From Azospirillum sp. (lineage in GTDB: Bacteria; Pseudomonadota; Alphaproteobacteria; Azospirillales; Azospirillaceae), in the NCBI GenBank assembly GCA_027486405.1, contig JAIXPD010000073.1, positions 33,580 to 97,579 on the forward strand: DNA of 64,000 bases, written 5' to 3'. The translations under genes and the position numbers were made by a program. Below, piece by piece: positions 14,804 through 16,039 of the stretch; within the stretch, counting starts at the first letter, position 1, and the number at the start of each line of letters is the position of its first letter. The notes beneath the pieces were generated by a model. The model was not told the DNA's origin, ran no database searches, and saw only the letters and a list, made by a program, of their open reading frames with translations.

Positions 14804-15902
14804 AGTATCCGTTATGGACAAGCGGATTTTTCGTCCCACTTTCGGCCTTTGCTCAAGAGGGCATTGGCAAAGATAACGAGCTTTCGCATAACGGCGGTAA
14901 TTGCGATCTTTGGAGCTTTTCCGGCGTCGGTGAGACGCCTGTAAAATTCTTTGAGGTTTGGATTGAAGCGAGCCGCGACGAGTGCGGGCATATAGAGAGC
15001 CTGGCGCAGGATAGCTCTTCCTCCGCGAATATGATCTTTTCCTTTCCATGTCCCGGACGCCTGGGTCATGGGGGCAAGTCCAGCGAGGCTTGCGGCCTGT
15101 TTGGCGTCAATAGCGCCCAATTCTGGCATTTCAATCAGAAGGATGGCGGCTGTCAGTTCGCCGACGCCGGGAATGCTGACCAGGATGGCGGCGCGTTTGG
15201 CCAGTTCGGCGTCTTCGGCGATTCGTTTGGCGATTTCGGCGTCGATGGTGGCGACGTCAGCCTCCACCTGCTTGATCCTGCGGTCGATCATTTTTTCGAT
15301 CAACGGCAGAAGAGTGATCTTCTGACGGTTTTTCGCGGCGGTCAGATCCTTGGTTAAAGCGCGGCGGGCGAGGAGCAAATCCTTGAGCAGCAGGATATTT
15401 TTGCTTTGCGGCGGTGGAGGGGTCAACTCCAGGGCTTTGCCCATCCGGGCCAGCATGGCGGCGTCAACGGCATCGGTCTTGGCGAGCGTCCCGAGGGCTT
15501 CGGCAAAACGACGCGCTTGGCGTGGATTGACTTTGACGGTCGGCATCCCGGCGCTGACAAGAGCTTGCTCCATGTCGTGCGCGTAACGGCCTGTCGCTTC
15601 AAAAACGATGCGGTCGATCGGTGTGGCTTTGATCCAACGGATCAGCGCCTTGTGACCTGTCGTGTCATTGGTGAAGCGCTTGGCGGCTCCATCGGGCAGT
15701 CGATGGGCGTCAAGGCTGTCTTTTGAAACGTCGATGCCGATGCTAGAATTGCTCATCTTTTCCATGTCCTGTGCTTGTCGTGCGGGCCATGACGCCCTGG
15801 TATCCGTTCAGGTCTGTGGAAAAGACGGGGGTGATCAAACTCTAACTCGGTCCTTTCGACCAGCGCCGTGACGATCTATCCCCCGCCGTTTGGGGTGGGT
15901 GG
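14804..15902 (-). mobile_element. IS110-family element (mirror copy, head-to-head with 15903-17001)
   Basis: Reverse complement of 15903-17001. Confidence 0.9.
14812..15765 (-). CDS. IS110-family recombinase (mirror copy)
   Basis: Identical to 16040-16993. Confidence 0.93.
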   Translation of the reverse strand: MEKMSNSSIGIDVSKDSLDAHRLPDGAAKRFTNDTTGHKALIRWIKATPIDRIVFEATGRYAHDMEQALVSAGMPTVKVNPRQARRFAEALGTLAKTDAVDAAMLARMGKALELTPPPPQSKNILLLKDLLLARRALTKDLTAAKNRQKITLLPLIEKMIDRRIKQVEADVATIDAEIAKRIAEDAELAKRAAILVSIPGVGELTAAILLIEMPELGAIDAKQAASLAGLAPMTQASGTWKGKDHIRGGRAILRQALYMPALVAARFNPNLKEFYRRLTDAGKAPKIAITAVMRKLVIFANALLSKGRKWDEKSACP

Positions 15903-16039
15903 CCACCCACCCCAAACGGCGGGGGATAGATCGTCACGGCGCTGGTCGAAAGGACCGAGTTAGAGTTTGATCACCCCCGTCTTTTCCACAGACCTGAACG
16001 GATACCAGGGCGTCATGGCCCGCACGACAAGCACAGGAC
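15903..16039 (+). ncRNA. Putative IS110 bridge RNA (target-binding and donor-binding loops)
   Basis: Target loop: stems CGGGGG 15920-25/CCCCCG 15974-79 and GATC 15929-32/GATC 15969-72 enclose guides CACGGCGCT (15935-43) and TTAGAG (15960-65) around the hairpin GGTC-GAAAG-GACC. Donor loop: stem CCTG 15993-96/CAGG 16034-37 encloses AACGGATAC (15997-16005) and GACAAG (16026-31) around the hairpin GGGC-GTCATG-GCCC. Two guides match the right junction at 16992-17005. Folding was done by eye. Confidence 0.8.

What the first reader, a model, noticed from the sequence alone, without database searches (positions are those of the whole stretch)
15873..15932. Fold-back point sits inside the IS left end; the predicted true left end is missing
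Seen: only 15 nt (CCACCCACCCCAAAC) separate the symmetry axis from the first bridge-RNA stem. The predicted left-end start CT-TGTC and left target flank CACGGCG do not occur upstream in non-mirrored form. Established: the IS621 bridge RNA has a 5' stem-loop ahead of the target loop. Inference: the natural 5' stem-loop is probably GTTTGGGGTGGGT-GGCC-ACCCACCCCAAAC, a roughly 30-bp perfect palindrome, and the giant repeat was seeded at its apex. If real, IS110 leaders of this type would be portable fold-back or inverted-amplification hotspots; if not, they are predictable mis-assembly points.
Basis: partly seen in the sequence, partly recalled or inferred. Interest (0 to 1): 0.7.

Follow-up and report, generated by a model that had tools for sequence, protein, structure and literature searches.

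The report
Mirror contig turning at IS110 hairpin
The deposited contig runs along 49.5 kb of an Azospirillum genome into a multi-copy insertion sequence, turns round at a real 36-base hairpin in it and reads the same DNA backwards, which is almost certainly an assembly error and not a real duplication.

Summary
The whole 98,962-bp contig equals its own reverse complement, and the axis is window 15902|15903.

Intact left ends read CACGGCG-CT-TGTC..., followed by a perfect 36-bp palindrome (GCCGTTTGGGGTGGGTGG|CCACCCACCCCAAACGGC) centred exactly on the axis.

This hairpin is the conserved 5' stem-loop of the bridge RNA of a 1,154-bp IS110-family element with about nine copies. In 48 relatives, 12 of its 13 base pairs show compensatory changes. 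Several lineages keep it as a zero-loop palindrome.

The giant fold-back itself is most likely an assembly artefact (about 0.88), for these reasons:
- The arms reach both contig ends.
- The draft is a filtered k=119 de Bruijn assembly.
- The turn lies inside a collapsed repeat.
- Longer single-copy palindromes in the same genome assembled normally.
- No fold-back appears in 82 related loci or in a metagenome scan.

Side observation: in two genomes a different insertion sequence abuts this hairpin near its apex.

The parts
1..15902 (.). Left mirror arm, as far as the window shows it. It is the exact reverse complement of 15903-31804. In the contig each arm is 49,481 bp and only one of the two copies is expected to be real.
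15885..15920 (+). Native perfect 36-bp palindrome GCCGTTTGGGGTGGGTGG|CCACCCACCCCAAACGGC. It is the DNA of the 5' stem-loop of the bridge RNA and the turn point of the contig (axis 15902|15903).
   Evidence: The same 36-mer sits in intact left ends in C78, C79 and C91. As single-stranded DNA it folds at -21 kcal/mol, z = -5.8. The helix covaries in 48 relatives.
15885..17001 (+). IS110-family element, nt 38-1154 of 1154. The first 37 nt (TGTCTTATAGAATCCTCGGCTCATTCTGCAAGAATGG) are replaced by mirrored sequence.
15918..15981 (+). Target-binding stem-loop of the bridge RNA. Guide CACGGCGCT (15935-15943) equals the left target flank plus the CT core. Guide TTAGAG (15960-15965) is the reverse complement of CTCTAA at the right junction.
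   Evidence: Fold, consensus structure, junctions and empty sites.
15982..16038 (+). Donor-binding stem-loop. AACGGATAC (15997-16005) equals the element's right end. GACAAG (16026-16031) is the reverse complement of the left end CTTGTC.
16040..16993 (+). IS110-family recombinase gene, 317 aa (DEDD_Tnp_IS110 plus Transposase_20).
17002..17004 (+). CTA, the right target flank shared by all nine right junctions. The element ends ...GGATACT at 17001.
14812..15765 (-). Mirror copy of the recombinase gene in the left arm, identical to the right-arm copy.

Best explanation
Contig C9 is an assembler-made mirror (palindromic) contig. About 48.4 kb of single-copy Azospirillum DNA ends in one copy of a 1,154-bp IS110-family element that is present about nine times.

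The draft is a de Bruijn short-read assembly. Contig-end overlaps of 119 nt give k, and no contig is shorter than 2,641 bp. In such an assembly the element body is a collapsed repeat with many possible exits at its left end.

Thirty-seven nt inside that end lies a native perfect 36-bp palindrome, the 5' stem-loop of the element's bridge RNA. At this palindrome the contig path took a self-complementary edge and returned along the reverse complement of the element body and of the same flank.

Shown: the whole-contig symmetry, the native hairpin and left end in other copies, the repeat structure, and the graph logic of the contig ends.

Inferred: that the roughly 82 mirrored 119-mers which such an edge needs came from snap-back chimeric library molecules formed at the GC-rich palindrome (amplified about ninefold by copy number), or from a gap-closing or low-k step of the assembler, and not from the genome.
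For: - **Symmetry.** C9 equals its own reverse complement over 98,962 bp with 0 mismatches. The arms end at the contig ends, so nothing unique bounds them.
- **Native turn point.** The axis coincides with the centre of the native palindrome in C78, C79 and C91, which continue leftwards into ...AAGAATGG and the real left end.
- **Graph logic.** C78 and C91 stop at axis+55. C79, which carries one SNP, stops at axis+85. These are exactly the first shared 119-mers. The three contigs overlap C9 by only 73 and 103 nt, so a separate mirrored edge must have entered the graph at position -18.
- **Collapsed repeat.** The element body occurs only in C9, while there are nine right junctions and eight left junctions.
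- **Palindrome alone is not enough.** Single-copy zero-spacer palindromes of 44 bp (C81) and 42 bp (C37) sit inside contigs without any fold-back. A palindrome plus a repeat branch point seems to be required.
- **No parallel elsewhere.** None of 82 related loci is folded back. A metagenome scan for the mirrored junction gave only one chance hit.
- **Precedent.** 81 whole-contig palindromes were found in SPAdes assemblies of M. bovis (PMC9455707). The theory of palindromic unitigs and inverted loops, which SPAdes and MEGAHIT push through, is in PMC9528984. Chimeric library reads at palindromic sequences are described in PMC10908179.
Against: - Depth over the arms and read support for the mirrored junction are therefore unknown.
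- A 36-bp palindrome should not be ambiguous at k=119, so the source of the mirrored k-mers is unexplained. In principle it could be real DNA.
- The left junction of this particular copy was not identified, and there are nine right junctions against eight left junctions.
- Two contigs (C41 and C20) feed the outer end of C9, as a two-copy segment would require. However, they are paralogous repeats at 96% identity, and a third paralogue (C40) lies nearby.
Confidence: 0.88

Rival explanations
1. The inverted duplication is real. The hairpin, extruded as a cruciform or folded on a single strand, was cut and sealed into a hairpin-capped break. Replication of that break produced a giant perfect palindrome with its axis at the centre of the hairpin, in all or part of the culture.
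For: The axis is exactly at the apex of a very stable hairpin. Mirrored 119-mers must have existed in the data. The left junction of this copy was not found. Two different contigs enter the outer end of C9. Other DNA events do occur at this apex: an ISAs1-type element joins it in C35 and an ISKra4-family element joins it in Rhodoblastus.
Against: - From established knowledge, not tested here: spacer-less palindromes of tens of kb are not stably kept in bacterial chromosomes because of SbcCD and replication slippage.
- 36 bp is short for cruciform extrusion.
- The arms stop at the contig ends instead of at two distinct unique junctions.
- Contigs under 2.6 kb are absent from the draft, which by itself explains the missing junctions.
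- C41 and C20 are paralogous repeat copies.
- No relative shows such a structure.
Confidence: 0.06
2. The axis is the covalently closed hairpin end of a linear replicon. Sequencing through the turn gives a mirror image.
For: A hairpin telomere would also give a perfect spacer-less palindromic contig. Old pulsed-field work reported linear replicons in Azospirillum (from memory, not checked).
Against: - The palindrome is an internal part of at least three fully read, and eight partly read, other copies of the element that continue normally.
- No telomere-resolvase domain (PF16684) was found in the assembly. The draft is only about 94% complete and is length-filtered.
- Related complete Azospirillum genomes were searched for the element DNA and do not carry it.
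Confidence: 0.02
3. The C9 copy of the element is the same copy as the one in C35. An ISAs1-type element sits in its hairpin, and the assembler folded back because the native continuation was broken there.
For: C35 carries a left end that stops 5-7 nt past the axis and runs into a multi-copy ISAs1-type element. Its other half is not in the assembly, and neither is the left half of the C9 copy. By target type, C35 pairs with a 'CTA + unique' right junction such as that of C9.
Against: No contig joins the far end of the ISAs1-type element to the IS110 body. Four other left junctions could equally be the partner of C9. This is a refinement of the artefact explanation, not an alternative to it.
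Confidence: 0.15

Closest known systems
Whole-contig palindromes ('mirror' or 'hairpin' contigs) in de Bruijn-graph assemblies (PMC9455707; PMC9528984)
   Same: The contig equals its own reverse complement, has zero spacer and 100% identity, its arms run to the contig ends, and it turns at a short natural palindrome.
   Different: Here the turn lies inside a roughly nine-copy insertion sequence. The native palindrome (36 bp) is far shorter than the final k (119), so the simple 'lonely inverted loop' at the final k does not apply. Chimeric reads or an earlier assembler stage must have supplied the mirrored k-mers.
IS621 and the IS110-family bridge recombinases (Durrant et al. 2024, PMC11208160)
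   Same: DEDD plus Transposase_20 recombinase. A leader encoded in the left end with a 5' stem-loop followed by a target-binding and a donor-binding stem-loop. Guides that match the observed target (CACGGCG-CT-CTA) and the element ends. A CT core and no target duplication.
   Different: The nearest named relatives are about 54-62% identical in protein sequence. The 5' stem-loop is a perfect 36-bp zero-loop palindrome, and a second small hairpin precedes it. Nothing was tested biochemically.
REP-targeting IS110 elements ISPpu9 and ISPpu10 of Pseudomonas putida (PMC12288879; bioRxiv 10.64898/2026.03.19.712850)
   Same: Insertion into a repeated extragenic hairpin, with the left target flank forming one arm of that hairpin (TAGAGCGCCGTG...CACGGCGCTCTA).
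   Different: ISPpu10 is reported to lack the 5' bridge-RNA stem-loop. This element has both the target hairpin and a very strong 5' stem-loop.
Fold-back or snap-back chimeric library molecules at palindromic sequences (PMC10908179)
   Same: Artefact reads that join a sequence to its own reverse complement at a palindrome.
   Different: The paper describes them for human capture libraries. Whether they exist in this library could not be checked.

Membership tests
Assembler-made mirror contig | The contig is its own reverse complement, with arms reaching both contig ends. | tested here: met
   C9 equals rc(C9) over 98,962 bp with 0 mismatches.
Assembler-made mirror contig | The turn point is a short natural palindrome. 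| tested here: met
   The native 36-bp palindrome is centred on the axis in C78, C79 and C91.
Assembler-made mirror contig | Independent copies or assemblies run straight on through the turn point. | tested here: met
   Other copies in the same genome and relatives L025 and L026 continue into the real left end. The same chromosomal locus in another assembly was not available.
Assembler-made mirror contig | Single-copy read depth on the arms, and no or only rare chimeric reads across the junction. | not testable with these tools
IS110 family bridge recombinase element | Recombinase with DEDD (RuvC-like) and Transposase_20 domains. | tested here: met
   PF01548 at 7e-22 and PF02371 at 1e-20, both above the curated cut-offs.
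IS110 family bridge recombinase element | Non-coding RNA encoded in the left end: a 5' stem-loop plus two stem-loops with internal loops. | tested here: met
   MFE fold z = -5.3. In the consensus of 48 sequences, 26 of 38 pairs carry compensatory changes. The 5' helix is 94.5% paired against 74% in shuffles. This is prediction only; no RNA data were used.
IS110 family bridge recombinase element | Loop guides match the target flanks and the element ends around a CT core. | tested here: met
   CACGGCGCT and TAGAG match the empty site CACGGCGCT|CTA, which has about 20 intact copies, and all junctions. ACGGATAC and GACAAG match the element ends.
IS110 family bridge recombinase element | A promoter is rebuilt across the right-end/left-end circle junction. 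| tested here: inconclusive
   By eye the joined ends read TTGTCC-17 nt-TATAGA, which is 4 of 6 in each hexamer. The circle junction was not scanned and no transcript data exist.
Hairpin telomere of a linear replicon | A telomere resolvase is encoded in the genome. | tested here: not met
   PF16684 has no match in the assembly. The assembly is 94% complete and length-filtered.
Hairpin telomere of a linear replicon | The palindrome occurs only at replicon ends. | tested here: not met
   The same palindrome is internal to other copies of the element.
Real giant palindromic duplication | Doubled depth and two distinct outer junctions. | tested here: inconclusive
   Depth is not testable. Two contigs (C41, C20) enter the outer end, but they are 96%-identical paralogues and a third paralogue is nearby.

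The most novel reading that the evidence does not exclude
The perfect GC-rich palindrome that encodes the bridge-RNA 5' stem-loop is a real DNA-level fragile or target site. In this strain one copy broke at the apex, was hairpin-capped and replicated into a giant inverted duplication. In other copies and genomes the same apex captures unrelated insertion sequences (ISAs1-type in C35, ISKra4-family in Rhodoblastus sphagnicola). If so, this IS110 subfamily would carry a portable rearrangement hotspot.
Probability: 0.06. Interest if true: 0.7.

Novelty: not a real feature. Interest (0 to 1): 0.2.

Why it matters
The public record of this Azospirillum draft most likely holds 49.5 kb of sequence twice, including all the genes it carries. 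That inflates genome size, paralogue counts and contamination estimates, and it offers a false 'giant palindrome'.

The case also shows a specific recipe for such errors: a perfect palindrome sitting inside a multi-copy repeat. Single-copy palindromes that were even longer assembled correctly in the same genome.

On the positive side, the guides of an IS110 bridge RNA were enough to predict the element's missing left end, its target site and its 5' hairpin. All three predictions were then verified in other contigs. This is a useful annotation trick for truncated or mis-assembled copies.

Tried and rejected
- **Rfam.** Only sub-threshold microRNA-like hairpin matches were found. No bridge-RNA family matched.
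- **Genus search.** The element DNA is absent from 68 other species of the genus.
- **Single-protein scan of genome contigs.** It found nothing. The alignment-based rescan gave 80 loci.
- **Synteny through relatives, to find the true left neighbour of the C9 copy.** The asparaginase gene next to the element is 87-90% identical in five Azospirillum genomes, but its surroundings are not conserved.
- **Counting junctions (nine right, eight left) to show a missing left end.** Rejected as evidence, because no contig under 2,641 bp is in the draft, so short junction contigs are simply absent.
- **Two contigs entering one outer end of C9, read as a sign of two real copies.** Rejected, because C41, C20 and C40 are paralogous repeat copies.
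- **Metagenome scan for the mirrored-junction pattern.** It gave one hit, and that hit has no inverted repeat. It is a chance match in GC-rich coding DNA.
- **The far end of the ISAs1-type element.** It could not be traced because its body is not in the assembly.

Full report
**What is in the sequence**

The window holds a perfect inverted repeat with arms 1-15902 and 15903-31804 and no spacer. The window is C9:1384-65383 (minus strand) of a 96-contig, 5.49-Mb draft. It is the only such contig in the assembly.

The genus is Azospirillum. The neighbouring asparaginase gene matches Azospirillum sp. B510 plasmid NC_013856 at 90% identity, at the same coordinates as genome G005.

**The element at the axis**

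An IS110-family recombinase gene (PF01548 plus PF02371) lies at 16040-16993, with its mirror image at 14812-15765.

BLAST of the right arm against the genome shows that the element body exists only in C9. Eight other contig ends carry its right junction, all ending ...GGATACT|CTA. Eight carry its left junction.

The intact left ends read ...CACGGCG-CT-TGTCTTATAGAATCCTCGGC(T/G)CATTCTGCAAGAATGG-GCCGTTTGGGGTGGGTGG|CCACCCACCCCAAACGGC-GGGGGATAG.... The hairpin is a perfect 18+18-bp palindrome whose centre is the C9 axis.

The rebuilt element is 1,154 bp. C9 contains its nt 38-1154, at window 15885-17001.

The empty target is a 106-nt repeat ending ...TAGAGCGCCGTG-loop-CACGGCGCT|CTA, with about 20 intact copies. 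The element has inserted in either orientation of that symmetric hairpin.

**The hairpin is a conserved part of the bridge RNA**

The leader folds into four parts: a small hairpin, the 36-nt palindrome hairpin, a stem-loop whose internal loop carries CACGGCGCT and TTAGAG, and a stem-loop carrying AACGGATAC and GACAAG. The minimum free energy is -89.7 kcal/mol, z = -5.3.

These guides equal the observed target (CACGGCG-CT-CTA) and the element ends. [quoted passage not shown]

Relatives at 79% and 77% protein identity from metagenome contigs keep a perfect palindrome at the same place, with compensatory changes (GCCGCTTGGGG...CCCCAAGCGGC, and a G-run/C-run version).

In 48 non-redundant left ends (54-82% protein identity), the helix is 94.5% paired, against 74% in column shuffles and 42-68% with slid partners. 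Twelve of 13 pairs show compensatory changes, in 143 cells.

Zero-loop perfect palindromes recur in Rhodothalassium (18+18), an Acetobacteraceae MAG (17+17) and a Saliniramus MAG (16+16). Most other members have 13-15-bp stems with 4-9-nt loops, or bulged stems.

A 2026 preprint reports that the IS621 5' stem-loop acts as a terminator-like repressor of downstream expression (10.64898/2026.03.19.712850). The same role is the likeliest one here, by inference only.

**Why the giant repeat is most likely an artefact**

1. The arms run to both contig ends, so there is no unique DNA outside them.

2. Contig ends overlap by 119 nt (C41 and C20 with C9, C37 with C35). Contigs entering the element stop exactly at the first shared 119-mer: C78 and C91 at axis+55, and C79, which has one SNP, at axis+85. 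C90 and C53 start 80 nt inside the right end, which with 39 shared flank bases makes 119. This is a de Bruijn assembly with k=119.

3. No contig is shorter than 2,641 bp, so short edges were discarded. That explains why the 1.1-kb repeat body survives only where a path ran through it, and why some junctions are missing.

4. C78 and C91 overlap C9 by only 73 nt (-18 to +55), and C79 by 103 nt. So the graph held a separate self-complementary edge that joined the native path at the first 119-mer free of position -19. The contig path then chose this edge among about nine exits of a collapsed repeat.

5. Single-copy zero-spacer palindromes of 44 and 42 bp elsewhere in the genome lie inside contigs without any fold-back. 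The palindrome alone is not enough; the repeat context is needed.

6. None of 82 related loci is folded back. A metagenome scan for the mirrored-junction pattern of the subfamily gave a single chance match.

7. Whole-contig palindromes are a documented assembler artefact (PMC9455707; PMC9528984). Earlier notes of this scan list 56 similar cases in at least 54 genomes, often turning at small natural hairpins. Those are unchecked AI notes, used only as a base rate.

**What remains open**

A 36-bp palindrome is not ambiguous at k=119, so about 82 mirrored 119-mers had to come from somewhere. Candidates are:
- snap-back chimeric library molecules formed at the palindrome (described for other libraries in PMC10908179), enriched ninefold by copy number;
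- an assembler step such as gap closing, or carry-over from low-k rounds (from memory, not verified);
- real DNA.

Six Logan (k=31) contigs carrying the same element from other runs break in or beside the palindrome. Two of them start at axis-12, the first 31-mer that is unique to one side. This shows that the hairpin is at least a predictable contig-break point at small k.

**Rivals**

A real hairpin-capped break replicated into a giant palindrome cannot be excluded without depth data. It is disfavoured by the known instability of long spacer-less palindromes in bacteria (established knowledge), by the arms ending at contig ends, and by the absence of any parallel in relatives.

A hairpin telomere is unlikely. 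The same palindrome is internal to other copies, and no telomere-resolvase domain is present.

The left half of the C9 copy may be the one in C35. There the left end stops 5-7 nt past the axis and runs into a multi-copy ISAs1-type element (PF13808). This could not be proven, because the body of that element is not in the assembly.

**Verdict**

The fold-back itself is not a real genomic feature (confidence about 0.88). The real biology under it is an ordinary, if neat, member of the IS110 bridge-recombinase family whose 5' stem-loop happens to be a perfect palindrome.

Noticed in passing
own genome, contig C35:1-190 (not in the window): One copy of the IS110 left end runs only to 5-7 nt past the hairpin axis (...GGTGGCCACC(CA)). 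It then continues as the end of a multi-copy ISAs1-type element (CAGGGGAATCGC...; N-terminal PF13808 domain), which is also seen at the C37 start, C61:67-187 and C63:3797-3916.
   Followed up: partly
L045:1290-1400 (Rhodoblastus sphagnicola DSM 16996, NZ_NHSJ01000011.1): A related IS110 copy is cut off a few bases 5' of the apex of the same hairpin and abuts an ISKra4-family transposase gene (NF033572, 2.8e-66). Of five truncated copies seen (C35, L032, L045, L049, L101), two break at the hairpin apex. The numbers are small, but this could mean the apex is a real insertion or breakage site.
   Followed up: partly
own genome, e.g. C50:119640-119745, C34:43029-43134, C3:23670-23775: A 106-nt repeat is present in about 20 intact copies. 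It consists of a 63-nt arm plus a hairpin TAGAGCGCCGTG-loop-CACGGCGCTCTA, and it is the insertion target of the IS110 element. The left target flank is one arm of the hairpin, as reported for ISPpu10 of Pseudomonas putida.
   Followed up: partly
own genome, C63:1-163 and more than 60 other places: A roughly 163-nt repeat (93-100% identical copies) is scattered through most contigs, and many contig ends stop in it. It looks like a MITE-like element.
   Followed up: no
own genome, C9:1-1500 with the ends of C41, C20 and C40: The outer end of the mirror contig lies in a paralogous repeat. The C41 and C20 ends are 96% identical over 200 nt and both overlap C9 by 119 nt. The C40 end is 91-96% identical to C9:221-1487.
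   Followed up: partly
own genome, C81:115253-115296 and C37:16798-16839: These are zero-spacer perfect palindromes of 44 and 42 bp, longer than the IS hairpin, and they assembled normally inside contigs. Their function is unknown.
   Followed up: no
L019-L024 (Logan contigs of six public runs): The same element (recombinase 99% identical) occurs in six other sequencing runs with different right flanks (CTAA...). Three of them carry an A-to-C change in the 3' arm of the hairpin (CCCCACAC), which would break one base pair.
   Followed up: no
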